The translations under genes were made by a program, and so were the position numbers. A model generated the notes under the pieces. It did not search any database. It was not told where the DNA came from and was given only the letters and a program-made list of their open reading frames with translations. Shown here in pieces: positions 1 to 15,157 of a DNA stretch of 64,000 nucleotides; the stretch's first letter is position 1; each line of letters starts with the position of its first letter. The DNA is from Promethearchaeota archaeon (GTDB taxonomy: Archaea > Asgardarchaeota > Lokiarchaeia > Sigyniarchaeales > SOKP01), in NCBI GenBank assembly GCA_011364925.1, contig RDOA01000008.1:1-64000 (forward strand). The letters run 5' to 3'.

Positions 1-1302
1 TATTATTCCTTTTGGCCTATATTCGTCGAATTTTTCAGCTTTCTTAAAACTTTCATCTGCTATTGCGATCATTTCCTTTAAAAAGTCGGTTTCTTGTCTC
101 ATTAAGTCCATGAATTCATTATAATCAGTAGTTGACATTTTCATATTTTCCCATAGTGTTCTCGCATCTTTCGGCCCTAATTCCATGTAATAAGTAGTAG
201 TTACTTCTTCATAACTCTTTTTAGTTTTATATATTTCCACTCGTTTGTTTTCCACTAATTTGGCTAAATCACGTAATTGGGTGTAGAGTTCATCTTTCTT
301 CTTTTTATTAGATTCATTGTTTATTTTGATGCTCAGTTCAATACTTTCAGCTAACAATTTTTTCAACTCTGCTAACTTTTCCTCTCTTGGGACAAGGTCT
401 CGTTCAATTTCTTTTATTAAATCGAGCTTCCGTTGATTGTAATATTTCTTCTCTTCTTCAGTGAGCTCACTTTCTTCTAATTGTTTAATAATATCAGTAA
501 GTTCCACAAACAAGGATTCCGATTGCGCATATTCCCGAGCAAATTTTTCATTGAGAGAGGCTCGAATATCTGGGGGTTTTTTAAGCAGCGCAAGAGAATC
601 AGGTTTTACCTCAACGAGTTTTTCTCTCAATTTAACCCATTGTGGACTATATTCTACCGCTTTTTCAAAACATTCGATAGCTTTTTTCGAATTATTTAGG
701 TTTTCATAGATTAATCCTAAGTCAAACCACGCGTAACTGTGTTTTGGGTTAACATCTAAAGATCTTTCAAAATATGCTATAGCTTTTTCGTATTGTCCCA
801 TTTCTTTATACGCTAAGCCAAGACTATGCAAATGGTGTTCACTTTTGGGGTTAATGTTTGAAGCATTCTTACTAAATTTAATTGCTTCTTCGTAATTACC
901 GAGTCTAATGTTAATTTCACCGATTAGATTTAAAATATGTTCGTCAGTTGGATATTTTACTAAATCTTTTTCCAATAATTTAAGTCCTTTTTTATAATAT
1001 TTGGTTGCTTTGCTTCCTTTCGCCAGTTTAGAATAAGCATCACCTACACATGCATAAATCGGACCATATTTAGGGTGTAACTCTAGAGCAGTTGTTCCAA
1101 GCTTGATCATTTCTTCCCATTTTCCTAAATGCGATAGAGATTCCAATAACACACCCCAGCTAATGCTAACATTTGGTTCTAAATTTGTTAATTTAGTAAA
1201 TACTTTCACTGCCCCTTTAAAATCCCCCATCATGTAAGCTTTGGTACCGATAGCATATCCTTCTAAATGAGCAGACGATTTTGGAAATTCGTTCTTCCAC
1301 AT
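1..1302 (-). CDS. TPR-repeat protein with C-terminal coiled-coil region (runs off the window edge; not in the ORF track)
   Basis: Manual translation from ATG at 1302: MWKNEFPKSS...LHSLGLAYKEMGQYEKAIAYFERSLDVNPKHSYAWFDLGLIYENL...; several TPR motifs; frame open to position 1. Confidence 0.85.
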   Translation of the reverse strand, partial: MWKNEFPKSSAHLEGYAIGTKAYMMGDFKGAVKVFTKLTNLEPNVSISWGVLLESLSHLGKWEEMIKLGTTALELHPKYGPIYACVGDAYSKLAKGSKATKYYKKGLKLLEKDLVKYPTDEHILNLIGEINIRLGNYEEAIKFSKNASNINPKSEHHLHSLGLAYKEMGQYEKAIAYFERSLDVNPKHSYAWFDLGLIYENLNNSKKAIECFEKAVEYSPQWVKLREKLVEVKPDSLALLKKPPDIRASLNEKFAREYAQSESLFVELTDIIKQLEESELTEEEKKYYNQRKLDLIKEIERDLVPREEKLAELKKLLAESIELSIKINNESNKKKKDELYTQLRDLAKLVENKRVEIYKTKKSYEEVTTTYYMELGPKDARTLWENMKMSTTDYNEFMDLMRQETDFLKEMIAIADESFKKAEKFDEYRPKGII

Positions 1303-1403
1303 TTTCAATTCATATAATATATAAAGATAAGAAGTAATAAAGTTCAGCTTTTTCAATCTTACTTTTTTTTTATCAAATTAAAATGGTGCCAGATAACAAT
1401 ATT

Positions 1404-1521
1404 CCGTGTGAGCGAGACGAGCGCACCCGTAGAAGACGGGTTTGGTGAGGTGGGGGTGTACGTGCTAAAGGCTTGAATGTGTCGAGGTGGATGATATTCG
1501 TTTCGAGATTGAAAGAAGGAA
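1404..1521 (+). repeat. Intergenic repeat family copy R1 (subtype A, 92-bp internal deletion)
   Basis: 1404-1465 matches 6887-6948; it then joins TAAAGGCTTGAATG...TTTCGAGATTGAAAG. Confidence 0.9.
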
Positions 1522-1606
1522 TGCGTGTGACAAAGTTATTGAAATTAACCCGAAGTACGAAAAAGCATTGGAATTAAGAGAAAAACTACTCAAAAATCGG
1601 ATTTAA
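1520..1606 (+). pseudogene. Orphan 3' fragment of a TPR gene fused to the end of repeat R1
   Basis: Reads NACDKVIEINPKYEKALELREKLLKNRI*, like the last TPR and capping helix of 1738..3945 (ALKLKPNFQDAIEVREQIL). Confidence 0.6.
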
Positions 1607-1737
1607 GATTATTTGAAGGTTTACTTGTTTTACAATACCGGTGAGAGCAAATCTTTTGAGCAACAATTATAACTGGAATTAGGTTATATAAATAATAAGA
1701 GCAAAAAATTTGACAATTTAGGAATCAGAAGATCAAG

Positions 1738-3945
1738 ATGCAAGAAATTTTTAATAAAACTACACCTAAAGTTCAAACTGAGAAGTTTAAAGAAAAAGAT
1801 TTGGTTAACTTATTTGAATACCACAAAGTTTCGGGCTCTGGAGTTCAGACAGATCCATACATAATTGAAAGTAGTGATGTTTTTCCTAAGGTTGATATAA
1901 TAGCAATTAAAAAATCAAATCTTTATATTCAATTTAGGAATCACGATTTAAGATCAATTAAATTTAAAAGATCATCAAATATAACAATTAAAAATTGTAA
2001 TTCTTCGAATCTGCAACTTCTTAATTGTTCTGAAGTAAAAATTTTCGATTCCACTTTCGATTTGCTAGAGATAAATAATTCCGTCAAAATTTCTATCCAT
2101 AATTCCAAGATTTCTTATCTGAAACTATTCAATTCCTTTCTAAACGAATTTGATAATTGTTCAATTAAAAGAATAGATAAACACCATAGCCCTGATAACA
2201 CCTTAAATATAGAAGGACAACTGGAAGATAAAGATAGAAAAAGTAATATATTCCAAAATAATGTCCCCTCGATAATAATCCTGTTTTTAGTATTACTTGT
2301 TTGTGGAGATATTCTTTTTTTTTCGTTCATAACGTACACAGTAACCCCCTATACTTTAATAATCATATCGATAATAACAGCTTCTATTATAAGTTTCATG
2401 GTTATTTCTGTTAAGGAAGCAATAAATTTACAAAAAAAGCTGAAAAAATATTATAACGGAAACATAGATTTGGAGTTTAATAATGGTAAAATTATCCTCG
2501 GTTGTGGATTAATAATATTAGGTTTAGTTTTAGCAAATTTATCAATTTATATTCTTTACACTGATCCCTTATTATGGTTACAAACCGAAATTACAACGAT
2601 TTATCTTCTCTCTTTAATCACAATTGCTTCTGTTATTATAACCATCGGTATAAACTCTATATTAAGAAATATGCGTTCTTTTAGAGATCGTTTTGTTAAA
2701 AAGAAAAGTCCGGTTTATCCTCTATTTCTACTCTATAACATCTTTTATGCTCTCATTTTGAGTTTTATGTATATAAGTGCTTTCCTTTTTAATTTAAATG
2801 ATGCTTTTTTAATTATCGCTCAGTTGCTACTCGCTTATCTTGTGATAAATTTTATCATCGCAGTATTTACAAAATTTAAACTTTCTAAATCTAAAGAATC
2901 TTCGGGGGCAACAAGATCTATCCTTGGGATATTCTTAGTGGGATCAGGAGGCTTTACTTTCCCTTTACTAAATTCTCTTCTCCCTGTTTACATCTATTAC
3001 CTTGGTTTGCTTAATTTCCCTCAAATTGCTATTTACTATTTCTTACTCATGTGTTCATCAGTTATTCTAGCTCTCTTCGGAATAATTTCCTTCCCTAAAA
3101 CTTCAAAATTTTTATCTGCTGTTCAATATAGCAAAAAGGAAAAGTATACTAAATCAATCAAATCCTTTCGATCTGCATTACGAACTGAACCATATAACGA
3201 AATTGGATTGTATAATTTAGGAATGACATATTACAAGAATGAGGAATATGCTAAATCAGTTGAAACTCTAAAGAAAGTTTTGACAATAAACCAAAACTCG
3301 ATACGTACCTTGATCGGTTTAGGATACGCTTTCACTGAGTTAGGAGATTTTGAATCTGCTATTAATTCTTGCGAAAAAGCGATCCATCTAATTAAAAATC
3401 CAGTTATATCAGTCTCAACTAAACTAAGCGATATAATTAAACAAACTTTCGCTCAACCAATTAAGGAGGAATCAGCGTGGCAAGCTTTAAGCTATGTATA
3501 TTCAGTTCAAAACAATTACGAGAAAGTAGTGGAAACAGCGAAGAAGGCGTTAAAGTTAAATCCTAGATATAAAGAAGCGTTGCTCTCTCTTGCATATGGT
3601 TATACTTATTTAGGTGAATATGATAAAGCAATTGAAGCTTGTAATAGTGCTCTAGATTTAGATTCTCGTTTTGGTTATACTTGGCATCACCTTGGAAGAG
3701 CTTATCACTTAAAAGGTGACCTAGACTTAGCATTTCAGATGTTTGAAAAAGCTGTTAAATTGTCTCCTAACGAACATAGAATTCGATTAAATCTTGCTAA
3801 ATTATTCTTAGATAAAAAAGAGTATTCTAGAGCCCTCGAAGAAATTGACATAGCTCTAAAACTTAAGCCAAATTTCCAAGATGCTATTGAGGTTAGAGAA
3901 CAAATTCTAACATTGATAAATGAAGACGACAATGTAAATAATTAA
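1738..3945 (+). CDS. Multi-pass membrane protein with N-terminal beta-helix-like repeats and C-terminal TPR array
   Basis: GSGVQTDPYII plus beta-helix-like repeats, ~8 hydrophobic segments, ~7 TPRs. Confidence 0.85.
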   Translation: MQEIFNKTTPKVQTEKFKEKDLVNLFEYHKVSGSGVQTDPYIIESSDVFPKVDIIAIKKSNLYIQFRNHDLRSIKFKRSSNITIKNCNSSNLQLLNCSEVKIFDSTFDLLEINNSVKISIHNSKISYLKLFNSFLNEFDNCSIKRIDKHHSPDNTLNIEGQLEDKDRKSNIFQNNVPSIIILFLVLLVCGDILFFSFITYTVTPYTLIIISIITASIISFMVISVKEAINLQKKLKKYYNGNIDLEFNNGKIILGCGLIILGLVLANLSIYILYTDPLLWLQTEITTIYLLSLITIASVIITIGINSILRNMRSFRDRFVKKKSPVYPLFLLYNIFYALILSFMYISAFLFNLNDAFLIIAQLLLAYLVINFIIAVFTKFKLSKSKESSGATRSILGIFLVGSGGFTFPLLNSLLPVYIYYLGLLNFPQIAIYYFLLMCSSVILALFGIISFPKTSKFLSAVQYSKKEKYTKSIKSFRSALRTEPYNEIGLYNLGMTYYKNEEYAKSVETLKKVLTINQNSIRTLIGLGYAFTELGDFESAINSCEKAIHLIKNPVISVSTKLSDIIKQTFAQPIKEESAWQALSYVYSVQNNYEKVVETAKKALKLNPRYKEALLSLAYGYTYLGEYDKAIEACNSALDLDSRFGYTWHHLGRAYHLKGDLDLAFQMFEKAVKLSPNEHRIRLNLAKLFLDKKEYSRALEEIDIALKLKPNFQDAIEVREQILTLINEDDNVNN

Positions 3946-3954
3946 TGTAATTTA

Positions 3955-4108
3955 TCGGGCAAAGTATTCAGCCTACCATTCTCAAACGCGCGAGTGTGTG
4001 GCACTCGAAAGAGGAGTTCGAGGTTCAGGCTTAGGGTGAGAGAGGTTTGTGTAAGTTTTAGACGATAAACATCTCGAGATTGAAATGATGAGGGGGTGAG
4101 TTCCTGAA
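3955..4108 (+). repeat. Repeat copy R2 (subtype B)
   Basis: Shares a perfect 48-mer TCTCAAACGC...GAGGTTCA with R3 and R5; starts 10 nt after the 3945 stop. Confidence 0.95.
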
Positions 4109-4118
4109 TGGGGGTTTG

Positions 4119-4877
4119 CTAATTCCAAATCTCATACCAAATAGCCATAAGTAGAAGCGGAGCAAAAAAACCTATAAGGGCTCCCCAGCCTATAAATTCA
4201 GGATTGATCGCCCAGCCTATCAACAATCCAATAAAACAAGTCACAAAGGATACAACAAGAAAAACGATTAAATTGCTTCCTGTTGAGGATATTTTCACTT
4301 GATCTGATTCTTGCTCCTTTCTATATACAAGTTTAAAGTCAGTGTTATCCGCGATTTGATATAGCTTTGGGTCTATATTTTTTTGATTCCTTTGTTCTTC
4401 GGTCATCTTGCGCAGTTTTTTCTTTTTTTTAATGACTTTAGAAAAATCAGAGTAGATGGGATTTTTTCCGAAGGCCATCGTTCTAAGCCAACGCTTATTG
4501 TCAAAGCTTTCAATCTCGTTAATTTGACATTTATATAAGTCGATCCATGCTAAATTTACAAGAGCATCGAGTCCTTTGAGTGTATGAATTGGATTTTTGT
4601 TGAGGACCAGGATTATCAAGTGCGTGAGATTTTCGAGATTTTTAATCTCGCTAATAGAATTATTAGCGAGTATTAGAACTTTTAGATTCTGTAGTGCTTC
4701 TAAACCTTCAATTTCAGATATTTGGTTATTGCTAAGGTTTAACACTTCCAGATTTTGTAAATCTTCGAGTCCCTCTATCGATGAGATTTGCGTAATTTTT
4801 TTCCCGGAAAGATTGAGGGTTAGTTGACCTTTTCTTCTTTTTGTTTTATACGTTTTATTTTGATAAATTACGGACAT
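4119..4877 (-). CDS. Leucine-rich repeat (SDS22-like) protein with C-terminal TM helices
   Basis: LEVLNLSNNQISEIEGLE repeats; paralog of 14125..14817. Confidence 0.9.
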   Translation of the reverse strand: MSVIYQNKTYKTKRRKGQLTLNLSGKKITQISSIEGLEDLQNLEVLNLSNNQISEIEGLEALQNLKVLILANNSISEIKNLENLTHLIILVLNKNPIHTLKGLDALVNLAWIDLYKCQINEIESFDNKRWLRTMAFGKNPIYSDFSKVIKKKKKLRKMTEEQRNQKNIDPKLYQIADNTDFKLVYRKEQESDQVKISSTGSNLIVFLVVSFVTCFIGLLIGWAINPEFIGWGALIGFFAPLLLMAIWYEIWN

Positions 4878-5030
4878 ATATTTTTATCGTCGATATTGCA
4901 TATAAAAGTTTTTCTGCTTTTTACTAGTTAAATCTATGTATTTGCTGGTAAATTCCATTTATAGTTTTTTTACGGAACGCTCATGGAAGTTCCGAATCAT
5001 TATGGCAGTATAGATCTATAAATAGGTACA

Positions 5031-5189
5031 GAGCTTTCGGGCGAGGTATTCAGCCTGCCACTCTCAAACGCGCGAGTGTGTGGCACTCGAAAGAGGAGTT
5101 CGAGGTTCAAACTTAGGGTGATAAAGGCTTGAATGTGTGAGCGGTGGACGATAAGTGTTTCGAAATTGAAAAAGGGAGTGTGTTCCGGA
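5031..5189 (+). repeat. Repeat copy R3 (subtype A)
   Basis: 5034-5153 differs from R5 at 5 of 120 nt; ends GGGAGTGTGTTCCGGA followed by a T-tract. Confidence 0.95.
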
Positions 5190-5335
5190 TTACTATTTTT
5201 TTTTATAATTTAGTGAAGGTTAATAATTTAGCGTTCTAATTTTATATTGATTAAGTGGCATAAAGTAGGTTTATTTAGAGGTGCATTTACATATTTAAGA
5301 AATCCCTTGGGTGGTGGCTTATCTTTGTAGGGATC

Positions 5336-5653
5336 ATGTTGTTAATCATAAGTAGCCTAATTTACGACCTATTAATATTTGTTTGGGAGATTTTTATAGA
5401 ATTTTATTGGGTTGTAATTTTGTTATCTGGGGTGGGTATTGGTAGTCTGGTTATAGGTGGGATAAAGCTGCAATATAACGCACCAAGCTGGATTGTGTTA
5501 ATCGGTGTAATACTAATTTTTATTTCGTTAATTTTAGCATCGCTTTTTATGAGTTTAGGAGGTATTTTATTGAGTTATGTATCGATACCGATGATACTTG
5601 TTGTTATAGGGCTTGTATGTATAGTAGTGGCAGGATTAATCAGAGAAAAATGA
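5336..5653 (+). CDS. Small hydrophobic membrane protein (true start may be slightly upstream)
   Basis: 3-4 TM segments; only gene between R3 and R4. Confidence 0.7.
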   Translation: MLLIISSLIYDLLIFVWEIFIEFYWVVILLSGVGIGSLVIGGIKLQYNAPSWIVLIGVILIFISLILASLFMSLGGILLSYVSIPMILVVIGLVCIVVAGLIREK

Positions 5654-5669
5654 ATTCTAGTTTAAATTA

Positions 5670-5735
5670 GTGAGGGTTTGTGTAAGTTTTGACGATACAG
5701 TTTCGAGATTGAATGTGGAGCGTTGTGTTCCGGAA
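5670..5735 (+). repeat. Repeat copy R4 (subtype B, short)
   Basis: GAGGGTTTGTGTAAGTTTTGACGATACAGTTTCGAGATTGAA...GTGTTCCGGAA. Confidence 0.9.
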
Positions 5736-5841
5736 CTTTATTCTCTTTCATTTTATATGTACCAATTAGTAATCAAAGCAAAATTATTTATTTCTAGATT
5801 GGTTAATATTATCTGAAATTTGTAGAGGAAGTGATGATTCA

Positions 5842-6309
5842 ATGATTTTGAGTGGAATCATTGGCACGATACTCTGGATTAGGTCTAGGCGTTGGTTCAA
5901 AGGCTATAAATCTCCATATCGGTTGTTAATTAGAATAATAATCCAGTTATGTATAGTTGGGCTAATTTCCATACTTTCGGCTACCATAGTCTTTTCTATT
6001 CCGCGTTCTTATGGAGATTATACGATATTTCTACCGTTATCTTATCCTTTCTTGGTGGCTTGGAATATCGATGGGTTGCTTCCTGTGTGGCCTCCTTATC
6101 AATATTATTCCATATCTGTATTTTTTATTCCAATTAAAGGGGGATTATTGAACTCAGAATATGGTTCATTTTCTGCTATCCTAGGGGAAATATTTTTCCA
6201 AAGTATGCCGCTTTTTCTGCTAACGAATATGGTCTTAACAGGGATTCTCCTTCTTCTAAGCGAATTACGGATTTTTCGTTTTAATATTAGTTCTAAATCT
6301 ATTCTATAA
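5842..6309 (+). CDS. Membrane protein, tandem paralog 1
   Basis: 45 of the first 50 aa identical to 6346..6786. Confidence 0.85.
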   Translation: MILSGIIGTILWIRSRRWFKGYKSPYRLLIRIIIQLCIVGLISILSATIVFSIPRSYGDYTIFLPLSYPFLVAWNIDGLLPVWPPYQYYSISVFFIPIKGGLLNSEYGSFSAILGEIFFQSMPLFLLTNMVLTGILLLLSELRIFRFNISSKSIL

Positions 6310-6345
6310 GTAAACAAAATTTTAAAAAAGGAAATGTATTAAAAA

Positions 6346-6786
6346 ATGATTTTATGTGGAATCTTGGGCACAATAATTTGGATTAGGTCGAGGCGCTGGT
6401 TCAAAGGTTATAAATATCTGTATCGGTTATTAATCAGAATAATAATCCAGTTATGTATAGTTGGGCTGATTTCTATACTTTCCGCTACCATCGTCTCTCC
6501 TCCGCGTTTATATGGTGAAATCTCAATTTTTTTACCCTTATCTTATCCAGTATTGCTACAATGGGGTATTTCTGGATATATGGTGTACCCTCCTATTCAT
6601 TATTACACAATAAGCGTGTTAGGTATTGATTTTACAGGTGGGGCGTTAGAATTTGGTGCTTCCGCTTACATTCAAGGGCAAATTTTTATGTATAGTATAC
6701 CGTTATTACTATTACTCAATCTGGTCTTTACAGGAGTTCTACTTCTTCTTAGTGAATTATGGAAGGTTTTTTTTTCTAAGAAGTAG
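6346..6786 (+). CDS. Membrane protein, tandem paralog 2
   Basis: Paralog of 5842..6309. Confidence 0.85.
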   Translation: MILCGILGTIIWIRSRRWFKGYKYLYRLLIRIIIQLCIVGLISILSATIVSPPRLYGEISIFLPLSYPVLLQWGISGYMVYPPIHYYTISVLGIDFTGGALEFGASAYIQGQIFMYSIPLLLLLNLVFTGVLLLLSELWKVFFSKK

Positions 6787-6860
6787 TTTAGTTTCTGAGC
6801 GTAAAAGAGTAAATTAATGAACTCCTGATAAATGAAGGTGCAGACATTATTCTCTTGATA

Positions 6861-7121
6861 AGTGCGAGCGAATGTGGTGAGGTGAACCGTGGGAGCGAGA
6901 CGAGCGCACCCGTAGAAGACGGGTTTGGTGAGGTGGGGGTGTAAGTGCCGAACTTTCGGGCGAGGTATCCAGCCTGCCACTCTCAAACGCGCGAGTGTGT
7001 GGCACTCGAAAGAGGAGTTCGAGGTTCAGGCTTAGGGTGATAAAGGCTTGAATGTATGAGCGGTTGACGATATAATGATTCGAGATTGAGAGGAGGGAGT
7101 GTGTTCCGGAGTTTCTACTCC
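6861..7121 (+). repeat. Repeat copy R5, the longest copy (subtype A); candidate structured ncRNA or non-autonomous element
   Basis: Contains all modules seen in the other copies; multiple hairpins; GC-rich against the AT-rich background; T-tract follows. Confidence 0.95.
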
Positions 7122-7231
7122 ATCTTCTTTTTTATTAAGCAATTTTATTTACTAGGGGTAATTTACTATGTAAAGTTTTAATTTCATATTTTCACAGAAC
7201 ATTCAAAATGTAGAATCAAGAGGGAGGAGAG

Positions 7232-7402
7232 ATGAGTGAGGAAGAGATGGATAAGGTTATAAGGCTGCTTATTGACGAAGTTGCTAAGTTAAAGGACGAG
7301 CATGCCAAATGGAAAGTTATAATCGAAATAATATTTTTAGTTTCGGTTTCGAGTCTGATAATTTCTATTGTCGTATGGCTTGATTTTTTAGGAATAATAT
7401 GA
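7232..7402 (+). CDS. 56-aa helical protein with C-terminal TM segment (not in the ORF track)
   Basis: GGAGG RBS; MSEEEMDKVIRLLIDEVAKLKDEHAKWKVIIEIIFLVSVSSLIISIVVWLDFLGII*; only ORF between R5 and R6. Confidence 0.7.
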   Translation: MSEEEMDKVIRLLIDEVAKLKDEHAKWKVIIEIIFLVSVSSLIISIVVWLDFLGII

Positions 7403-7410
7403 GAAACTCA

Positions 7411-7461
7411 GTTGGCAGACGATATTAGTTTCGAGATTGAAAAAGGGAGTGTATTCCGGAA
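7411..7461 (+). repeat. Repeat copy R6 (3' module only)
   Basis: GACGATATTAGTTTCGAGATTGAAAAAGGGAGTGTATTCCGGAA followed by a T-tract. Confidence 0.9.
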
Positions 7462-7582
7462 TTTACTTTTTTTTACTAATGGATTGATCCAAAAGAGTGA
7501 AAGAGACAGTTTTAACCACCAATACATTTTTTGTACAAAACTGTAATTTTATATAGTCAAACTATTACCATATTATTGAATT

Positions 7583-9220
7583 GTGAAAGATAATATAACG
7601 CCCGAAGGTTCTCCTTACGATATTCTTCTCCTAGAAAAGGATTTTTCTACAATTAGGCTCTTAACGAGATATTTTGAAAGTAAAGGGGTAACCAGCAAGG
7701 CTGTGGTAAGTGGAGTAAAAGGATTGGAAGAATTAGAACACAACACCCCTAGATTAATAGTAATGTGTATAATGTTACCAGATTATAGTGGGTTTGAGCT
7801 CTGTAAAAAGATAAAATCAAATCCAAAATTGAAACATATCCCGGTATTTTTTTGTACTGCATTCCCTGGTTCTGAAGTTGAAAAACATCTTGTTGAGACA
7901 AAAGCAAACGGGTATATACTTAAGCCTTTTAAGCTTAGCGAATTCGATGGAATTCTCGACTTATTAAATCTACCTAAAAGTTTTGTTTGGAGGAAAATTA
8001 ATCAATACATAACATTGAAATTGGAAAATGGGAAAACTCAAATTTACGTAAAAAACAAGTTCGGTAAAGATTCGGTATATGAGACTGCAGATTTGTATCA
8101 AAAAGAAATAGTAGAGGGTCCTTCTGCACGGCCCTTACACGAAAACCACGATATAAATCCAGAGCAGGAGTTTTGGGGTATTTGTTCTAATCTACAGGCG
8201 TGGTACGAGAACGGTTACGATACTCGTTTGCTGCATACTAACTTAGCATTTAATCTATTAAAAGCATTAGTTAAGGCAGGGGATCTAATTGCGAAACGAG
8301 TCTTTAAAACTGAACTTGCTTTTATATTTAACAATCTAGATGTTGGAAAATTCATTGCGTTAGATCTCTCAAATTTATATTTGAATACAATACCAAGTTC
8401 AATTCAAAACTTTAAAAATCTTAAAAAGCTTGATTTAAGTGGAAATCACTTATCCGCACTTCCGGATTCAATTTCTCATCTTCAATTATTGAGAGAATTA
8501 AATTTAAAACATAATGAATTCGCATCCTTTCCCGCATCTGTTCTAAATTTAAAAGCTTTAGAAAAGTTGGATATAAGTAACAACTTGATAACTAGAATTC
8601 CAGAAGAGATAACTGAATTAGAGTTAAAAACCATTAATATGAGTTCGTGTAACTTAACAGAGATACCAGAGATAATAATGGAATTAAAAACTCTAGAGGA
8701 ATTGAACTTAAGTGAAAATAAAACGATCAAACGACTTCCTGAATCAATAGGAAATTTGAAATCATTAAGAGTTTTAGAATTGAGGTGGCTCAGTTTAGAA
8801 GAACTTCCAGAATCTATAGGAAATTTAACTGATTTACTTAAACTAGATTTAACTTACAATTGGCTACAATACTTACCAGAATCTATAGGAAATCTTATTA
8901 ACTTAGAAGAGTTAATTTTATACGCCAATAATTTGAAAGAGCTTCCTAAATCTGTTGAAAATTTAAAAAATCTTAAAAAGTTAATTTTAACAAAAAACTT
9001 GCTAGAAGAACTTCCCAAATTTCTTTCTAATCTTAAAAATCTGAGAGATTTAACATATGAATATAACGAATTCAACAAACACTCTAAAGCAGAGGAAGAG
9101 CTCATTCAAAAGTTTAAAGAACGATTACAACAGGCTAAAGAAGAAAGATGGGATAAAAAGAAGAATAAAGCAAAAAAGAAAGAAAATTTGAAAAGTAAAA
9201 AAACCTTTAAAAGAAATTGA
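7583..9220 (+). CDS. Receiver-like domain + Loki-type linker domain + LRR protein
   Basis: N-terminal REC fold (IMLPDYSGFELC...ILKPF); EFWGICSNLQAWYE motif; ~10 LRRs (LPESIGNL). Confidence 0.85.
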   Translation: MKDNITPEGSPYDILLLEKDFSTIRLLTRYFESKGVTSKAVVSGVKGLEELEHNTPRLIVMCIMLPDYSGFELCKKIKSNPKLKHIPVFFCTAFPGSEVEKHLVETKANGYILKPFKLSEFDGILDLLNLPKSFVWRKINQYITLKLENGKTQIYVKNKFGKDSVYETADLYQKEIVEGPSARPLHENHDINPEQEFWGICSNLQAWYENGYDTRLLHTNLAFNLLKALVKAGDLIAKRVFKTELAFIFNNLDVGKFIALDLSNLYLNTIPSSIQNFKNLKKLDLSGNHLSALPDSISHLQLLRELNLKHNEFASFPASVLNLKALEKLDISNNLITRIPEEITELELKTINMSSCNLTEIPEIIMELKTLEELNLSENKTIKRLPESIGNLKSLRVLELRWLSLEELPESIGNLTDLLKLDLTYNWLQYLPESIGNLINLEELILYANNLKELPKSVENLKNLKKLILTKNLLEELPKFLSNLKNLRDLTYEYNEFNKHSKAEEELIQKFKERLQQAKEERWDKKKNKAKKKENLKSKKTFKRN

Positions 9221-9313
9221 TAAACCAATATATTTATACTCTGTTGTCTTTTTCAATATCTATATTAATAATGAAATTAGCTTTTTCGTTAGTCTGACAA
9301 TTTATAATTAACT

Positions 9314-9814
9314 ATGAATCTTACAGAGCTCAAATCAAAAATTCCAGAGATATTTGAAGAAGTTAAAAAAGATGTTAAAAGTGTTTTAGGTCGACACCGA
9401 GCTGGATTATCTTTAGGATTTGCTGATATGGGAATAACTCCAACAAATATTGTAGGAGGTATGTACTTATATCCAGGCACGGAAATCGTATTAAACATAA
9501 CTCCTTTAGAAATTATGCTCAAATCTCAATCCTATGATATTGTATGGGCTTACATGTATCACTTACTCCTCAACTTATATCTGAAATCTTTGGGCATTCT
9601 TGACGAGATTGAATGCAAACATTTGACTTCATACGTAAGTAAAGAAATTTTCAAAAAAGCAGATCACCCTGCAATAATTATGGCTGAAAAAGGGTTCGGA
9701 TATTATATTCCAAACAATAAGATAATATATATGCCCCCAGCTTCAAAACCTGATGGGATTTCAACTGAATATAAAAAGTGTTTAAATAAAGAAAGTAAAG
9801 ATTATTTTTCTTAA
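9314..9814 (+). CDS. Conserved archaeal hypothetical protein (zincin-like family; HExxH apparently lost)
   Basis: IFEEVKKDV..LGRHRAGLSLG motif recalled from an archaeal family. Confidence 0.7.
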   Translation: MNLTELKSKIPEIFEEVKKDVKSVLGRHRAGLSLGFADMGITPTNIVGGMYLYPGTEIVLNITPLEIMLKSQSYDIVWAYMYHLLLNLYLKSLGILDEIECKHLTSYVSKEIFKKADHPAIIMAEKGFGYYIPNNKIIYMPPASKPDGISTEYKKCLNKESKDYFS

Positions 9815-9845
9815 GGAAGAGAAAATTCTTACTGTTACAAAACAG

Positions 9846-9877
9846 TTCGAAGTTGAAAGGAGGGAGCGTGTTCCGGA
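9846..9877 (+). repeat. Repeat copy R7 (3' core)
   Basis: TTCGAAGTTGAAAGGAGGGAGCGTGTTCCGGA followed by a T-tract. Confidence 0.85.
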
Positions 9878-10008
9878 TTATACTTTTTTTAATTATATAA
9901 GTTAGAATTCACAAAAGATCGTGCGACAAAATTCAAAAATTATAAATTAGTATATTTTTACTATGATCAGAAATAAGTTGAAAAAATAGCCTTCTACTTT
10001 AAAATAAT

Positions 10009-10422
10009 GTGAGGGAGTTAAAAATGGTATTTTTGTGTAAGAGATGTGGAAGAGTGTTAAAATCAGCTAAAAGCATCAAATTAGGGTATGGACCCACTTG
10101 TTATAGAATCATAAAGTTTCATGATAATCCTATTAATATCCAAGAGGAAATTAAGTTTTTAAAGATTGAGATAAATCTGTTAAAGAAAGTGATAAGAGAA
10201 TTAAAATCTAATAAGAGTATATCCTATCAAACCTCTCCAATAATAAAGATAAGAAACCAAGAGAACTATCTCGAGAGAGATGTAAATAAGGGGCACATGA
10301 AAGAAGTAATTCAGGAATTAAAGAGTTGTTTTCAAAATTGTAATGGAGATGTAAAAAGTTTATTACAACCGATCGATATTGAACCGAATCTTATTAAAAC
10401 ATCTCAATTAGCTGTTGTTTAA
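10009..10422 (+). CDS. DUF6011-like Zn-finger and coiled-coil protein (probable start ATG 10023)
   Basis: CKRCGRVLKSAKSIKLGYGPTC motif. Confidence 0.75.
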   Translation: MRELKMVFLCKRCGRVLKSAKSIKLGYGPTCYRIIKFHDNPINIQEEIKFLKIEINLLKKVIRELKSNKSISYQTSPIIKIRNQENYLERDVNKGHMKEVIQELKSCFQNCNGDVKSLLQPIDIEPNLIKTSQLAVV

Positions 10423-10527
10423 ATCGTTCGAAAGATATATTCACACAAATATTTAACTAAAATTTTTTTCTTGTTTTTATTAGAAATACCCATATTAAAG
10501 TATACTTCAATTGGATAATTACAACAA

Positions 10528-11670
10528 TTACCTTTGAGCCTTAAAATAATCCAATACATTTTTAAGGGATTTTTGAACATCATTAACTTTGTTCATATCA
10601 ACCATGACAGTTTGGTCATATAATACAATGTATTTTAGTCCTACTTTAGCATAATTTTCTATTTTACTTATGATTTCATCTGAAGTCCCGGCAAATCCAA
10701 ATTCGCTGTATACATCTTGGGGGATTTTTTCTATGATATTCATCATTTGTTGTTTGTTGTATAAAGAAGGGATAAATTGAACTAAACCATCAAAAGAATC
10801 TCCTATAGGATGTGAAACGCCATATTTTTTAAAATGTTGGGAACCAAGAAATAATCCAGAAATTTTTAGTACTTCAGATTTGAGCATCCTTTTTACATCT
10901 TCGTTGTCCTCATCTATTATAAGGGGCGCAAACATACTAGGAATAAACTTATCTGTATCTCGCTCTGCTTTTTTAGCTGATTCTTGAATAACATTTAATT
11001 TTTCTTTATATACATTTGGCGAAGAGACATGAAATTTGCATGGATACCATCCATCTGCCAACTCTCCTGTCAGGTTTAGCATTTGTGGTCCATGTGCTGC
11101 TACCCATATAGGGGGATATTTATTTTTTCTATAGGGGTTCAATCCTAAGCATGCTCCTTTTAATTTCCAAATCTCACCCTCAAAATTTACATTCTTTTTT
11201 TCTTGCCAGAGTAATTTAATTATTTTTATACATTCCCTTAACCTAGAAACAGGTCTGTTGTAATCAATTCCATATGGAATTGTATTTAGATATTCACCCG
11301 CCCCCATTCCAAGGATTATTCTTCCTTTAGAAAGATTATTTTGAGCTAAAAAAAATTGAGCTAAATCTGCAGGGTGCCTTCTAAAACATTCGGTAACACC
11401 GGAAGCAATCTGTATTTTTTTTGTATTCATGACAACATTCGAAATTATAGTACACATATCGTAAAGATTATTAGGACTTTCTATAGATTTTGCGGCATCT
11501 ATAAACTCAGGATCCCATAGAACTTCTGGAAAAAAATTCATCAAATGATCATCGATTATGACACAGTCAAATCCAGCCTTCTCATAATTCTGAATCATAC
11601 TTAATCCGGCTTTAAATGGAACACCCTCAAAACTTGCATCAATTCCTATTCTAACATCAGATATATCCAT
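10528..11670 (-). CDS. LLM-class (F420/flavin-dependent) oxidoreductase
   Basis: DDH, RRHPADLAQ, GRIILGMGAGE, PPIWVAAHGPQML..ADGW motifs. Confidence 0.9.
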   Translation of the reverse strand: MDISDVRIGIDASFEGVPFKAGLSMIQNYEKAGFDCVIIDDHLMNFFPEVLWDPEFIDAAKSIESPNNLYDMCTIISNVVMNTKKIQIASGVTECFRRHPADLAQFFLAQNNLSKGRIILGMGAGEYLNTIPYGIDYNRPVSRLRECIKIIKLLWQEKKNVNFEGEIWKLKGACLGLNPYRKNKYPPIWVAAHGPQMLNLTGELADGWYPCKFHVSSPNVYKEKLNVIQESAKKAERDTDKFIPSMFAPLIIDEDNEDVKRMLKSEVLKISGLFLGSQHFKKYGVSHPIGDSFDGLVQFIPSLYNKQQMMNIIEKIPQDVYSEFGFAGTSDEIISKIENYAKVGLKYIVLYDQTVMVDMNKVNDVQKSLKNVLDYFKAQR

Positions 11671-11761
11671 AATCCTTTGCCCTCTTTTAAAAAAATATTT
11701 CTTTGAGAATTGAATTATTATATATATTCTTTCAAGTCTATTTAATTATTTGCTTGAAGAA

Positions 11762-11792
11762 TTTCGAAATTGAAAAGGGGGTGTGCTTCGGA
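11762..11792 (+). repeat. Repeat copy R8 (3' core)
   Basis: TTTCGAAATTGAAAAGGGGGTGTGCTTCGGA followed by a T-tract. Confidence 0.8.
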
Positions 11793-11956
11793 ATTTTCAC
11801 TTTTTTTTCGTTTTATTAGTAGTAGAAGGATCTTTTTACCAGTATAATAGCAAGGAATCTTTATATATGTCCTTAGTAGTAATCTATACTAATAAAAAAC
11901 ATACTTAGACATTAACTAACAGAGAAATAAAGCGAGAAAATATCGGATTTAATTAA

Positions 11957-13621
11957 ATGGAATCTAAAAAAGTAAGAGAGGATTATAAGGACTCCGATTG
12001 GTTAAAACATCAGTTTTACGATTTAGGGAGAAGTATTCAAGATATTGCTAACGAGCAGGGAGTATCTATGATAACGATAAGAAAGTGGTTGGATATGTCG
12101 GAGGAGAAGAAGCAAGAGCTGCGGAGGAAACCAGATGTGATGTCTCAACGAAAATCATCGATTTACAAAGGTCTATGGAGGTTTAATCAAGGAAACTTTA
12201 AGAAGGCAAATGAGATCTTTGCCGGAGCCATCAAAAAAAATCCTTCTAATGCGGAGGCATGGCAATATAACGCAATGACATTATACGAGTTAGGGATGTA
12301 TGAAGAAGCGTGTACTCAAATTAAGAAAGCACACGAGATAAATCCCTACTCCATCGAGATTTGCTTTGAATTTATAAAAATCCATTTGAAAATTGGTACC
12401 TATGGGGAATTGCTACAGTTCTGTCAAGAGAATCAGAAGTTAGATCCAGACAGGTTCAAATATAAGTTTGTCGAGGTTCACGCACGATTTAGGCAATACG
12501 CTCTCGCTTTGGAACAGCTTAACGATTTATTGACCACACGACTCGAAGATTCAGATTTACTGAGGGTAAAGGATTATTTGATGCAAGCAAAAAGAAATTC
12601 CAGTAACTATTATATACCTGGTATTCAAACGGGTTTATTGCCACATATTCCTATTGGAGATGAGATTATCTATAGCTCAAACATGAGGATTCATTGGGAA
12701 ATTATTATTCCATCAAGTGAGAGTAAGTGGGCCAAAGTATCAGATGTTCTATCAGATTTGTCGAGCATTTTAGATTTTATATTCGATATAGTGGATGATG
12801 CCGTCGAGGATAAGATTATTAGAGGAGAATTCTCTACTGATGTCTTGATGACCCACGAAGGAATCTTTTTCATGAAGACGAATCCAGAAGAAAAGAGTAA
12901 ATTAAAAATACCCAAATTTATCCCTTGGCAATATATTAAGGTGGAAAAAGATAGTACTCTAGTAGTAGAGGATTATCATATAAAATTTAACTTCAATCAT
13001 TTACCCAATTATATAAAATTTAACTTTAATTATTTACCCAATTATGAATCGAACTCTTCATTCGTCGTTCGGACGCAGAAATTCTACGAATATATTATGG
13101 CTAAGAGATACAAATATACACAGAAGTGTTTAGAAAAAATAAAAAAATATGTAAAAGATTTTAGAGACGCTGATGCTCAAGAATGGTTTAATAGAGGTAA
13201 AAACAGTAATATCTGGCACTCTGACTACAACTTAGGGAATCAATTAGCTGATGCATTTGATCCCGCCAAATTAAGAATGAGACACGGCGATAAAGAAGTG
13301 AGTGATAAAGCTGAGAAAATAATCCTTATGTATTTAAATGAGAACGAGGGGAAAGCATTTACATCCAGCAGCCTTAGAAAGAGAATCGGAGAAACTGTAG
13401 AAGATTTGAAAATCCTAAATTATGTAAACGAAAATCTTGAGGGTATTTTAAACAAGTTAGTATATAACGGTAAGATCCAATTAGAAACTCATAATTTTGG
13501 TAAGTTTTATTATACAATACATTGTCCTTTTTGTCATAAAGAAATTACTAAAGGAGAGAAAATCTGTTCATATTGTCATACATCACTAGAAGAAAAAAGT
13601 GATAAAGGTTTGAATGTGTGA
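11957..13621 (+). CDS. Mosaic protein: N-terminal HTH, TPRs, C-terminal Zn-ribbon
   Basis: SIQDIANEQGVSMITIRKWL HTH; TPRs; CPFC...CSYC; last 7 codons and the stop come from repeat R9. Confidence 0.85.
   Translation: MESKKVREDYKDSDWLKHQFYDLGRSIQDIANEQGVSMITIRKWLDMSEEKKQELRRKPDVMSQRKSSIYKGLWRFNQGNFKKANEIFAGAIKKNPSNAEAWQYNAMTLYELGMYEEACTQIKKAHEINPYSIEICFEFIKIHLKIGTYGELLQFCQENQKLDPDRFKYKFVEVHARFRQYALALEQLNDLLTTRLEDSDLLRVKDYLMQAKRNSSNYYIPGIQTGLLPHIPIGDEIIYSSNMRIHWEIIIPSSESKWAKVSDVLSDLSSILDFIFDIVDDAVEDKIIRGEFSTDVLMTHEGIFFMKTNPEEKSKLKIPKFIPWQYIKVEKDSTLVVEDYHIKFNFNHLPNYIKFNFNYLPNYESNSSFVVRTQKFYEYIMAKRYKYTQKCLEKIKKYVKDFRDADAQEWFNRGKNSNIWHSDYNLGNQLADAFDPAKLRMRHGDKEVSDKAEKIILMYLNENEGKAFTSSSLRKRIGETVEDLKILNYVNENLEGILNKLVYNGKIQLETHNFGKFYYTIHCPFCHKEITKGEKICSYCHTSLEEKSDKGLNV
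12978..13043 (+). repeat. In-frame 33-bp tandem duplication
   Basis: ATATAAAATTTAACTTYAATYATTTACCCAATT x2, encoding IKFNFNHLPNY / IKFNFNYLPNY. Confidence 0.9.
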
Positions 13622-13680
13622 GCGGTGACGAAAAAAATTTCGAAATTGAAAAAGGGAGTGTGTTCCGGAGTTTTTACTCC
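13599..13680 (+). repeat. Repeat copy R9 (subtype A)
   Basis: GTGATAAAGGTTTGAATGTGTGAGCGGTGACGA...TTTCGAAATTGAAAAAGGGAGTGTGTTCCGGAG. Confidence 0.95.
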
Positions 13681-13822
13681 AAACTTTTCTTTTAAATTTT
13701 TCATTTTGTTTTTTTTAGGCTTTCGGCCTTTAGTGTATCTTTTGGGGATAAATGCTAAATAGGTGGGTTACATTTGTGTTGTGTAATCAACAATTAAGAA
13801 AATAGAGGTGAGAGCAGTATAA

Positions 13823-14032
13823 ATGTCAAAATGTCCGTATTGTAAGGGGGATTTTCATTTAGAAGATTTTTTTGAAGTAGTTACTAAGGAGACGAAAAAA
13901 GGAAAAATTAGGGCAGACTTTCGTGATTTTAAGGGAGAGAGTTATAGTGTGAGAGGGTATGGGGTTAAGATGTGGGCTTGTCCTGGTTGTGGTTCGATTT
14001 TGGGGTTTTCAGAAGTGGCTTATGCTACTTAA
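13823..14032 (+). CDS. Small Zn-finger protein
   Basis: CPYC...CPGC; GAGGTG RBS; only gene between R9 and R10. Confidence 0.8.
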   Translation: MSKCPYCKGDFHLEDFFEVVTKETKKGKIRADFRDFKGESYSVRGYGVKMWACPGCGSILGFSEVAYAT

Positions 14033-14058
14033 GGGTAATTTTAAGGGTAAGTTTAGTC

Positions 14059-14113
14059 GAGTTTGTGTGAGAAGAACGTGATTATTGTTTTCGGGATTGA
14101 AAGGTAGGAGTGT
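14059..14113 (+). repeat. Repeat copy R10 (subtype B, diverged)
   Basis: GAGTTTGTGTGAG...TGATTATTGTTTTCGGGATTGAAAGGTAGGAGTGT. Confidence 0.75.
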
Positions 14114-14124
14114 AAACAAACTAG

Positions 14125-14817
14125 TTATGGAAGCAAGAATTTAGATAACGAGGTAGAGATTATAATAAAAATTACCACGGTAAAACATTGCAAACACTCT
14201 AAAAGGCCTTCAGCTCCACTTACTGCGAGGTATGCTCCTGCCCCCGATCCTTGTTCTGGTTTATATTTAAGTTTAAAATGAGTATTTTCCGCTATTTGCC
14301 ATAGCTTTGGGTTTACACCTTTTCTATTCCTCTGTTCTTCGGTCATCTTGCGTAGTTTTTTCCTTTTCGAAACTACTTTATATAAATCCGCGTAGATTGG
14401 ATTCTTCCCTAAGAACATTTTTTCAAGACTTTGTTTATTGCTAAAACTTTCAATTTCGCTTATTTTGCATTTAAAAAAGTCAATCTCTTTCAAATTTTCA
14501 AGAGTATCGAGTCCCTTGAGGATGTAGATTGGATTCTTATTGAGGATGAGCAATTCTAAATTAGTAAGATTTACGAGGTTTTTAATCTCAGTAATCGAAT
14601 TATTAGCGAGAATTAGAACTTTTAGATTTCGTAGTGTTTCCAAACCCTCTATCTCAGAAATGGAGTTATTACTAAGGTTTAATACTTCTAGATCGTGTAA
14701 ATCTTCGAGGCTCTCTATAGATGATATATGCGTAATTTTTTTCCCTGAAAGATTGAGCGTTAAGCGACCTTTTTTTCTTTTTGCTTTGTACGCTTTTTTC
14801 TTAAATAATACAGACAT
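14125..14817 (-). CDS. LRR protein with C-terminal hydrophobic tail
   Basis: Paralog of 4119..4877 over ~185 aa; different C-terminus. Confidence 0.9.
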   Translation of the reverse strand: MSVLFKKKAYKAKRKKGRLTLNLSGKKITHISSIESLEDLHDLEVLNLSNNSISEIEGLETLRNLKVLILANNSITEIKNLVNLTNLELLILNKNPIYILKGLDTLENLKEIDFFKCKISEIESFSNKQSLEKMFLGKNPIYADLYKVVSKRKKLRKMTEEQRNRKGVNPKLWQIAENTHFKLKYKPEQGSGAGAYLAVSGAEGLLECLQCFTVVIFIIISTSLSKFLLP

Positions 14818-15104
14818 ATTAAATTTTTATATAATAATACTATATAAAGGTTTTCGTGATTTTTACCAGTAAAAAAGAGCGAATATTACCAATATAACTC
14901 CGAACTTTTAAATAGGAGTCTGATCAGAGATCTTCTTTATAGTTAGTGGATTCCTGTATAACCTGTATAAAGGAAAATTTTAAAGCGTGAATAAGCCCTA
15001 ATTTTTAATCCAATTTTTTTCATAACTTACTCTAAGATTATGCAAGCCAAAACACTCTTTTTTGATAACTTATTTAAGAATTACCACTTTAGATTGAATA
15101 AAGC

Positions 15105-15157
15105 ATGTGTGTATGCGTGTCAGGCGTTTGGTTCGAAATCGAAAAACTATTCCGGAA
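15105..15157 (+). repeat. Repeat copy R11 (degenerate)
   Basis: ATGTGTG...TTCGAAATCGAAAAA..TATTCCGGAA. Confidence 0.55.

What the first reader, a model, noticed from the sequence alone, without database searches (positions are those of the whole stretch)
5145..5204. Conserved 3' core holds two spaced palindromes (TTTCGAAA ... TTCCGGA), a possible recombination or protein-binding site
Seen: even the shortest copies (R6, R7, R8) keep TTCGA(R)RTTGA-purines-GTGTG-TTCCGGA with ~17 nt between the palindromes, and similarity stops within a few nt after CCGGA. Inference: this ~32-nt core is the functional site and the fixed breakpoint lies at its right edge; the 5' extension is dispensable.
Basis: partly seen in the sequence, partly recalled or inferred. 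Interest (0 to 1): 0.7.

Follow-up and report, generated by a model that had tools for sequence, protein, structure and literature searches.

The report
Spare 23S rRNA tail end
The "two-palindrome core" is the last ~60 bases of the transcript that follows the 23S ribosomal RNA gene (the strand that pairs with the rRNA leader, then a stop signal), copied many times in one direction between accessory genes behind that gene in an Asgard archaeon.

Summary
The motif is real. At 5147-5204 it reads GACGATA, TTTCGAAATTGA, GGGAGTGTGTTCCGGA, then T9. Eight good and four degraded copies lie on the + strand of window 1.4-17.6 kb, and none elsewhere in the 3.9-Mb assembly.

It is not a free-standing palindromic site. 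In congeners (Promethearchaeia MAGs) the long form sits at the 3' end of the 23S rRNA gene: about 145 nt of 23S (H99-H101) plus a 125-190-nt trailer. The whole trailer is complementary to the 23S 5' leader, with compensatory changes between species. This genome's own leader (contig C44) pairs with every good window core in three colinear blocks (z -3.6 to -7.6).

So the core is the distal 3' strand of the pre-23S processing helix plus a small hairpin and oligo-T.

- **Palindromes:** they are incidental. TTCGAG replaces TTCGAA in half the copies, and resident trailers read TTCTGGA or TTCCTGA.
- **Setting:** window 1-36.8 kb is a variable zone between the 23S gene and a conserved block. Copies never mix strands (50/50 multi-copy contigs), neighbouring genes face both ways, and no recombinase is nearby.

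This scan has noted similar 23S-tail arrays in other Asgard genomes.

The parts
5031..5087 (+). 23S rRNA-derived part of the copy that holds the finding (homologous to the last ~57 nt of the 23S gene)
   Evidence: Aligns to the end of the Rfam LSU_rRNA_archaea match in congeners. blastn to the 23S ends of G020, G016 and G008.
5088..5146 (+). Proximal trailer: 3' strand of the pre-23S processing helix
   Evidence: Homologous to the trailer of congeners. The equivalent stretch of copy c7110 pairs with the G000 leader on C44.
5147..5153 (+). GACGATA block, pairs with leader UAUCGUC
   Evidence: RNAduplex of the core against the C44 leader.
5158..5169 (+). Box A, TTTCGAAATTGA (the first 'palindrome'), pairs with leader UUUCAAUUUCGAAAU
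   Evidence: It reads TTCGAG in half of the copies that have it.
5174..5189 (+). Box B, GGGAGTGTGTTCCGGA (contains the second 'palindrome'), pairs with leader GGAACAUACUCCCC
   Evidence: Compensatory leader/trailer changes between G008 and G020.
5190..5204 (+). Short-type 3' module, TTACTA + T9 (oligo-T, terminator-like)
   Evidence: A T5+ run is present in 70/80 copies against an A5+ run in 1/80.
6862..7133 (+). Longest copy (c7110): 23S H99-H101-like 6862-7006, trailer 7007-7133, ending in hairpin GGAGT-TTCT-ACTCC and a T-run
   Evidence: Duplex with the C44 leader is -102.9 kcal/mol.
3955..4110 (+). Long copy with a damaged end (GTGAGTTCCTGA, no T-run)
5696..5757 (+). Core copy c5734
   Evidence: Model R1, 54 bits.
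7424..7475 (+). Core copy c7460 (short type)
9840..9900 (+). Core copy c9877 (short type)
11757..11815 (+). Core copy c11792
13599..13692 (+). Copy c13669 (hairpin type); the upstream ORF 11957-13621 ends inside it
1404..1527 (+). Copy c1542: 23S-tail module joined directly to the distal trailer (internal deletion), with the 3' end lost
   Evidence: (D16, D11).
15927..16088 (+). Degraded long copy c16075
16842..16931 (+). Degraded copy, cut at the 3' end
17440..17522 (+). Degraded copy, cut at the 3' end
1..36800 (.). Variable gene zone between the unassembled 23S gene and the conserved syntenic block that starts at gene 36819-37862(-)
   Evidence: Synteny with G016, G002 and G014. In G016 the 23S trailer lies about 1.2 kb from the ortholog of 36819-37862.

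Best explanation
The core is the terminal module of the pre-23S rRNA transcription unit, present here as a spare, 5'-truncated copy.

Shown. In congeners the same sequence follows the 23S gene directly. The trailer is the 3' strand of a long leader/trailer processing helix. The blocks GACGATA, box A and box B pair with three colinear blocks of the 23S leader. A small hairpin (GGAGT/ACTCC) and an oligo-T tract then end the unit.

Inferred. The sharp right edge is the end of that functional unit, where transcription stops at the oligo-T. It is not a cut site set by the palindromes.

Inferred. The dispersed copies arose as DNA was added step by step just behind the 23S gene. Each addition had to leave the 23S gene with a working tail, so it duplicated tail sequence. 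The older tail was pushed downstream, where its dispensable 5' part eroded.

Inferred. What survives (leader-pairing blocks plus T-run, always in the direction of 23S transcription) most likely still works as an rRNA-type stop or insulator module against read-through. It also offers portable homology at which ordinary recombination can add, lose or exchange gene blocks.
For: Identity:
- 20 of 41 relatives hold the long form, usually once, directly 3' of the 23S gene.
- The Rfam LSU model ends about 122 nt into the element.
- Trailer/leader duplexes: -120 kcal/mol in G008, -96 in G020, -103 for G000 C44 against window c7110.
- Box B covaries with the leader: GGAACACAAC/GUUGUGUUCC in G008 against AGAACAUAC/GUAUGUUCU in G020. 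That is two double substitutions and a matched 1-bp deletion.
- All eight window cores pair with the G000 leader, 0/200 shuffles as good.
- The element does not fold unusually well on its own (z -0.38), as expected for one strand of a two-strand helix.

End module:
- T5+ run in 70/80 copies, A5+ run in 1/80.
- Hairpin with G-U wobbles and two double compensatory variants, GGAGA/TCTCC and GUAGU/ACUAC.
- G008 and a metagenome contig carry two or three box-B + T-run modules in tandem with no gene between them.

Accretion zone:
- Both flanks are conserved and the middle varies from about 1.2 kb to over 36 kb among species.
- Strand is uniform in 50/50 multi-copy metagenome contigs and in all MAG arrays.
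- Neighbouring genes face both ways.
- Copies far from the window start are the most degraded.

Constraint: in an orthologous cassette of G000 and G049 the coding DNA is 70% identical, yet boxes A and B are about 90% identical, and the 5' extent differs.
Against: - No transcript data: termination and read-through are inferred from sequence only.
- Archaeal termination needs little more than oligo-T, so the strong conservation of box B in dispersed copies is not explained by termination alone.
- Copies 10-17 kb downstream should not be needed as fail-safe stops.
- Model R1 included the T-run, so the 70/80 count is partly circular.
- The 23S gene of this genome is not assembled (C44 ends inside it). 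That C101 lies just behind it rests on synteny with relatives.
- No donor molecule carrying a tail copy was found.
- Conservation of the blocks could reflect gene conversion rather than function.
Confidence: 0.6

Rival explanations
1. The core is a dedicated site-specific recombination site, like attC or att. A recombinase encoded elsewhere recognises box B and the palindromes and crosses over at or just after CCGGA, inserting and excising circular gene cassettes at the 23S tail.
For: - Co-oriented repeats bound units of 0.35-2.6 kb.
- Two 93%-identical long copies switch to different conserved 3' modules exactly after CCGGA, and all four combinations of long/short 5' part with hairpin/short 3' part occur.
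- Closely related strains differ immediately after the tail.
- Compact cores of several species resemble each other more than their own resident trailers.
Against: - No tyrosine integrase lies on C101 or beside the 23S gene in G008, G016 or G020. The single conserved PF00589 gene per genome is elsewhere.
- No recombinase appears among recurrent array proteins.
- There is no GTTRRRY box and no R''/L''-L'/R' hairpin, and no self-folding signal.
- There is no single break point: hairpin-type pairs diverge after ACTCC, and short-type pairs after the T-run.
- A flavodoxin gene is inverted relative to the cores between G000 and G048.
- Shared cassettes keep the same order in G000 and G049.
Confidence: 0.2
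2. The copies are non-functional scars of past insertions or duplications. They are kept similar only by gene conversion with the resident tail and with each other.
For: - A G000-specific spacer (GAAAAAAGGGAG) is shared by four copies next to unrelated genes.
- c5189 is a long copy 93% identical to c7110, while its ortholog in G049 is box-B-only.
- Distal copies decay.
Against: - The blocks that pair with the leader and the T-run are kept while spacers vary, across more than 15 species and 72 metagenome contigs.
- G020 and G016 cassette cores differ from their own resident trailer (GTGTGTTCC against GTATGTTCT), so they are not being homogenised to it.
Confidence: 0.12
3. The dispersed cores act as RNA. 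In the 3' ends of cassette or read-through transcripts they pair with the abundant 23S leader. This would tie accessory-gene expression or RNA stability to rRNA synthesis, or offer substitute 3' strands for processing.
For: Every good copy keeps 30-40 nt of three-block complementarity to this genome's own leader. The conserved positions are the pairing ones.
Against: There is no expression data. The complementarity is inherited from the parent sequence and needs no new function. Copies that lack box A are common.
Confidence: 0.05
4. This is the first reader's reading in its narrow form: two palindromes bind a dimeric DNA-binding protein (regulator or methylation/restriction target) that controls the downstream gene.
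For: In the window 11 of 12 copies lie 27-260 nt upstream of a + strand gene. A C5 cytosine methylase gene lies at 31820-33013.
Against: - The palindromes are not conserved.
- Genus-wide the downstream neighbour is co-oriented in only 42 of 72 cases.
- TCGA, CCGG, TTCGAA and TCCGGA show no skew in the genome.
- Spacing between the boxes ranges from 17 to about 52 nt.
Confidence: 0.03

Closest known systems
Archaeal pre-rRNA leader/trailer processing helix (bulge-helix-bulge stems cut by the splicing endonuclease EndA; PMC7038931, PMC10351888, PMC8339473)
   Same: The parent sequence follows the 23S gene directly, is complementary to the 5' leader over about 165 nt, and covaries with it.
   Different: The window copies are detached from any 23S gene, truncated at the 5' end, repeated 12 times, and interleaved with protein genes.
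Additive flexible genomic islands marked by recurring repeats of an RNA gene's 3' end (e.g. last 20 bp of tRNA-Lys in 'Ca. Methylopumilus', PMC10872708); tandem islands at tRNA/tmRNA genes
   Same: There are co-oriented direct repeats of the 3' end of a stable-RNA gene. They precede a variable island of mostly unknown or accessory genes whose size differs between strains.
   Different: The anchor is the 23S rRNA tail and trailer, not a tRNA. The repeats are 40-270 nt with ragged 5' ends. No integrase was found in or next to the island.
Chromosomal integron cassette arrays with attC sites, including archaeal integrons (PMC9668308)
   Same: It is an array of small units, each ending in a co-oriented conserved repeat, with many short ORFs of unknown function.
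   Different: There is no intI/attI platform, no R''/L''-L'/R' hairpin and no GTTRRRY. The repeats derive from an rRNA gene, and genes face both ways with their own AT-rich upstream regions.
Tandem terminators behind rRNA genes (bacterial rrnB T1/T2; repeated Pol I terminator boxes in eukaryotes; own knowledge, not tested here)
   Same: Orientation-fixed repeats of a short box plus a T-rich tract lie downstream of the large rRNA gene, some in tandem with no cargo between them.
   Different: Here most copies are separated by genes and spread over 17 kb or more. No termination factor or activity is known.

Membership tests
pre-23S rRNA 3' trailer / processing-helix strand | Lies immediately 3' of the 23S rRNA gene | tested here: met
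   Met for the parent sequence in congeners G008, G020, G016, G009 and metagenome contigs. The window copies themselves have no 23S body upstream, so they are derived copies.
pre-23S rRNA 3' trailer / processing-helix strand | Extended complementarity to the 23S 5' leader, kept by compensatory change | tested here: met
   Duplexes of -96 to -120 kcal/mol. Two double substitutions and a matched indel between G008 and G020. The window cores against the G000 leader give z -3.6 to -7.6.
Archaeal oligo-T terminator | Run of at least 5 T on the non-template strand at the transcript end | tested here: met
   T9 at 5196-5204. T5+ in 70/80 copies against A5+ in 1/80; the search model included the T-run.
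Archaeal oligo-T terminator | Transcripts actually end there | not testable with these tools
   No transcriptome is available for this uncultured lineage.
Integron attC site | Linked intI tyrosine recombinase and attI at the head of the array | tested here: not met
   PF00589 is absent from C101. The genes upstream of the 23S gene in G008 and G016 are housekeeping genes.
Integron attC site | Imperfect palindrome R''-L''...L'-R' with R' = GTTRRRY that folds as a single-strand hairpin | tested here: not met
   No such boxes are in the alignment. The fold z-score is -0.38.
Integrative element at an RNA-gene 3' end (att duplication) | Direct repeats of the 3' part of the target RNA gene bounding inserted DNA, with the intact gene at one end | tested here: met
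   G016 has 23S + trailer, one 109-aa gene, then a second core. G020 has two full tails 2 kb apart. G008 has 18 or more cores behind the 23S gene.
Integrative element at an RNA-gene 3' end (att duplication) | Element-encoded integrase next to one att copy | tested here: not met
   None in the window (0-37 kb), in the arrays of relatives, or among recurrent array proteins.
MITE / IS-derived repeat | Terminal inverted repeats, target-site duplication, dispersal around the genome in both orientations | tested here: not met
   The family is confined to one locus and one strand.
Any Rfam family | Match at or near the gathering score | tested here: not met
   No hit in the window at gathering threshold, and none at E<=5 in 1-19 kb other than two chance snoRNA hits.

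The most novel reading that the evidence does not exclude
The 23S tail core is the working joint of an integrase-less (or unknown-enzyme) gene-capture system of Asgard archaea. In this reading an rRNA gene end, not a tRNA or attI, anchors a stack of exchangeable cassettes. The retained leader-pairing blocks give the cassettes an rRNA-linked RNA function (processing, stability or termination).
Probability: 0.25. Interest if true: 0.8.

Novelty: new variant of a known kind. Interest (0 to 1): 0.5.

Why it matters
The motif itself turns out to be an ordinary kind of sequence: the end of an rRNA precursor. What is unusual is its reuse.

In this Promethearchaeia genus the 23S gene end heads a fast-changing stack of accessory genes (TPR, LRR, Ras/Roc GTPases, small unknown proteins). 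The stack is punctuated by one-directional spare tails, with no integrase in sight. This scan has also noted such arrays in other Asgard classes.

If the tails are the joints at which genes are added or swapped, this would be a gene-accretion route in the archaeal lineage closest to eukaryotes that resembles tRNA-anchored islands but uses an rRNA gene.

There is also a practical point. Such copies mimic a structured ncRNA or a split rRNA gene, and they break MAG assemblies near rRNA genes.

Tried and rejected
- **Rfam:** gathering threshold on the window and E<=5 on 1-19 kb gave nothing.
- **Self-folding ncRNA:** the MFE is no better than shuffles, z -0.38.
- **Other element types** (group II intron end, retron, DGR, TnpB omega-RNA, MITE): rejected. 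The family is confined to one locus and one strand, has no associated RT or TnpB, and has a clear rRNA origin.
- **Integron:** no IntI and no attC features.
- **Viral or plasmid donor carrying the tail:** two IMG/VR scans gave one chance hit and none.
- **Exact 16-mer scan of 185k genomes:** mostly chance hits. Only Promethearchaeota/Promethearchaeia MAGs are real.
- **Recurrent proteins in 100 arrays:** only TPR, LRR, GTPase, PNPOx and unknown proteins, no recombinase.
- **Repeated 16S tail:** none within 1.5 kb behind the 16S gene of G008 and G016.
- **Restriction/methylation skew of TCGA and CCGG:** none.
- **Hairpin covariation over all 80 copies:** only modest (82% paired against 79% in shuffles), because short-type copies lack the hairpin.
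- **Gene-orientation test:** neither a promoter nor a gene-specific terminator role explains the polarity.
- **Literature:** no paper in the library describes 23S-tail arrays in Asgard archaea.

Full report
**1. What is there**

Window 5147-5204 reads GACGATA-aagtg-TTTCGAAATTGA-aaaa-GGGAGTGTGTTCCGGA-ttacta-T9.

- The 3' box is far over-represented: 15 hits against 1.25 expected, 0/100 shuffles.
- Repeat finding and an nhmmer profile give eight strong copies, ending at 4107, 5189, 5734, 7110, 7460, 9877, 11792 and 13669.
- A rearranged copy lies at 1404-1527, and three degraded copies lie at 15927-16088, 16842-16931 and 17440-17522.
- All copies are on the + strand.
- None of the other 111 contigs of the 3.9-Mb assembly (33% G+C) holds a copy.
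- The longest copy is 6862-7133.
- Copies start at very different points of that reference, but most end in the same place.

**2. What it is**

Rfam finds nothing, and the long copy does not fold better than shuffled sequence (z -0.38).

The answer came from relatives. In 20 of 41 related genomes the long form is present, usually once, and there it sits at the 3' end of the 23S rRNA gene. The Rfam archaeal LSU model runs to its last position about 122 nt into the element. So window 6862-7006 corresponds to the last helices of 23S after the large ES39 expansion, and 7007-7133 to the 3' trailer.

The organism is an Asgard archaeon. Exact-match hits fall in Promethearchaeota/Promethearchaeia MAGs, and the window encodes aIF-1A, small GTPases, and LRR and TPR proteins. 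In G008 the 16S and 23S genes lie 50 kb apart.

**3. What the conserved blocks do in the parent sequence**

- In G008 and G020 the whole trailer is complementary to the 23S 5' leader, at -120 and -96 kcal/mol over about 165 nt.
- Box B pairs with a leader block. The pair reads GGAACACAAC/GUUGUGUUCC in G008 and AGAACAUAC/GUAUGUUCU in G020. That is two double compensatory substitutions and a matched one-pair deletion.
- This genome's own 23S gene is not assembled. Its leader and first ~780 nt are at the end of contig C44.
- The C44 leader carries UAUCGUC, UUUCAAUUUCGAAAU and GGAACAUACUCCCC in the order expected for an antiparallel helix. They match GACGAUA, box A and box B.
- All eight window cores pair with it, at -32 to -49 kcal/mol and z -3.6 to -7.6, with 0/200 shuffles as good.

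The first "palindrome" pairs with an identical palindrome in the leader. The second lies at the edge of box B and runs into a small hairpin (GGAGU-loop-ACUCC) that is followed by oligo-U. The hairpin shows G-U wobbles and two double compensatory variants, GGAGA/TCTCC and GTAGT/ACTAC. The overall statistics are modest, because a second, hairpin-less 3' variant (CCGGATTATA-T7) is common.

This is the known layout of archaeal pre-rRNA: leader/trailer processing helices (PMC7038931, PMC10351888, PMC8339473), followed by an oligo-T stop (own knowledge).

**4. The palindromes are incidental**

- Among 80 copies from 27 loci, 17 have TTCGAA, 19 have the non-palindromic TTCGAG, and 35 have no box A. 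TCCGGA is present in 53.
- Resident trailers read TTCTGGA, TTCCTGA, TTCCAAGA or TTCTGAA.
- Spacing between the boxes is 17-19 nt in compact copies but about 52 nt in resident trailers.
- TCGA, CCGG, TTCGAA and TCCGGA occur in the genome at expected rates.

What is conserved is the set of leader-pairing blocks and the T-run: T5+ in 70/80 copies against A5+ in 1/80. The search model included the T-run, so that count is partly circular.

**5. The setting**

Genes from window 36.8 to 55 kb are syntenic with G016, G002 and G014. In G016 the ortholog of gene 36819-37862 lies about 1.2 kb from the 23S trailer. Between them are just one 109-aa gene and a second core. The other side of the 23S gene is also conserved and encodes housekeeping genes: DUF72, PanE, GNAT, PPS, aRF1 and Get3.

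So window 1-36.8 kb is a variable zone behind the 23S gene. It ranges from about 1.2 kb in G016, to 19 kb or more in G014, to 36 kb or more in G000 and G008.

- A covariance model of the compact core finds it in 15 of 42 genomes of the genus, often in arrays and often at contig ends.
- An exact 23-mer finds 72 marine-sediment metagenome contigs holding 177 cores. All 50 multi-copy contigs have every copy on one strand.
- Neighbouring genes face both ways: upstream 37 co-oriented against 36 opposite, downstream 42 against 30. The polarity therefore follows the 23S gene, not the cassette genes.
- Where an upstream gene is co-oriented, its stop codon sits close to the core, at a median of about 24 nt.
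- The 16S tail shows no such repeats within 1.5 kb.

**6. Edges**

About a quarter of copies lack box A and very few are cut at the 3' end. Copies 5023-5189 and 6942-7110 are 93% identical yet part company exactly after CCGGA, one taking the short 3' module and the other the hairpin module. Resident trailers of strains whose 23S genes are 97-98% identical lose similarity right after ACTCC.

However, there is no single break point. Hairpin-type copies stay alike through ACTCCA, and short-type copies through the T-run.

**7. Function of the dispersed copies (inferred)**

An orthologous cassette in G000 (5274-5687) and G049 is 70% identical in coding DNA. Its flanking boxes are about 90% identical and the spacers cannot be aligned. 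The left copy is long in G000 and box-B-only in G049. So the 3' module is either constrained or refreshed by conversion, and the 5' side is fluid.

G008 and a metagenome contig carry two or three box-B + T-run modules in tandem behind the resident tail, with no gene between them. That looks like fail-safe stops.

No recombinase lies in the window's variable zone, beside the 23S gene in relatives, or among proteins that recur in about 100 arrays. No viral contig carries the tail. A flavodoxin gene is inverted relative to the cores between G000 and G048, which a strictly directional cassette mechanism does not predict.

I therefore favour this account:
- DNA is added serially just behind the 23S gene.
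- Each surviving event keeps a working tail on the 23S gene and leaves an older tail downstream.
- The retained end module serves as a stop or insulator and as homology for ordinary recombination.

A dedicated recombination site, neutral scars kept alike by conversion, and an RNA-level role through leader pairing remain open.

**8. Comparison and novelty**

The closest described systems are additive flexible genomic islands marked by repeats of a tRNA gene's last 20 bp (PMC10872708), and integron arrays, including archaeal ones (PMC9668308). The membership tests for integron and integrase-borne islands fail on the enzyme and on site structure.

I found no paper on 23S-tail arrays in Asgard archaea. 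Earlier notes of this scan describe the same kind of 23S-tail-bounded arrays in other Asgard genomes. I reached the rRNA origin independently before reading them, and did not test their claims on their DNA.

**9. Verdict**

The "core" is the distal strand of the pre-23S processing helix plus its stop signal, in a spare copy. The palindromes are by-products. The sharp right edge marks the end of the rRNA transcription unit.

As a motif it is ordinary. As part of an rRNA-anchored, integrase-less gene stack it is a new variant of a known kind.

Noticed in passing
G000 contig C44:37084-38344 (not in the window): The 23S leader and about the first 780 nt of the 23S gene sit at a contig end, yet the whole-genome Rfam LSU search reported no match. 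Compared with G008, about 2.5 kb of extra DNA lies between the DUF72 gene and the leader.
   Followed up: partly
window 31820-33013 (+), with 30930-31748 (+) upstream: A C-5 cytosine DNA methylase gene (PF00145, E 3e-70) lies next to a zinc-ribbon protein. This may be a restriction-modification pair inside the variable zone.
   Followed up: no
whole genome G000: The tetranucleotide ACGT occurs at 0.47 of its Markov expectation and GGCC at 0.74, while CCGG and TCGA are at about 1.0. This hints at restriction avoidance.
   Followed up: no
window 15227-15685 (-) vs L035:1409-1882 (G048): An 83%-identical flavodoxin gene is co-oriented with the cores in G048, with its stop 3 nt from a core. In this window it is inverted relative to them.
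   Followed up: partly
window 16336-16758 (+) vs L022:13306-13719 (G014): An aIF-1A-family gene (86% identical protein) lies inside the tail-bounded array in both genomes. It could be a second copy or the only copy; this was not checked.
   Followed up: no
L016:14930-15230 (G008, upstream of the 23S leader): Two short tandem repeat arrays lie in the 23S promoter/leader region: TAATTTTCTGTAATATAACTAG about 4 times, and TCCTTAA about 4 times.
   Followed up: no
window 4119-4877 (-) and 14125-14817 (-); 5842-6309 and 6346-6786 (+): There are paralogous gene pairs inside the array (LRR proteins with 75% DNA identity; two unknown 146-155 aa proteins). Local duplication therefore also shapes the zone.
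   Followed up: no
L187:5420-5570 (metagenome contig, resident 23S trailer): In this strain the resident trailer is itself compact and of the short type (GCGAAATTGAGAAGTTGTGTTCCTGATTTTAA). So forms that are 'cassette-type' in one lineage are resident in another.
   Followed up: partly
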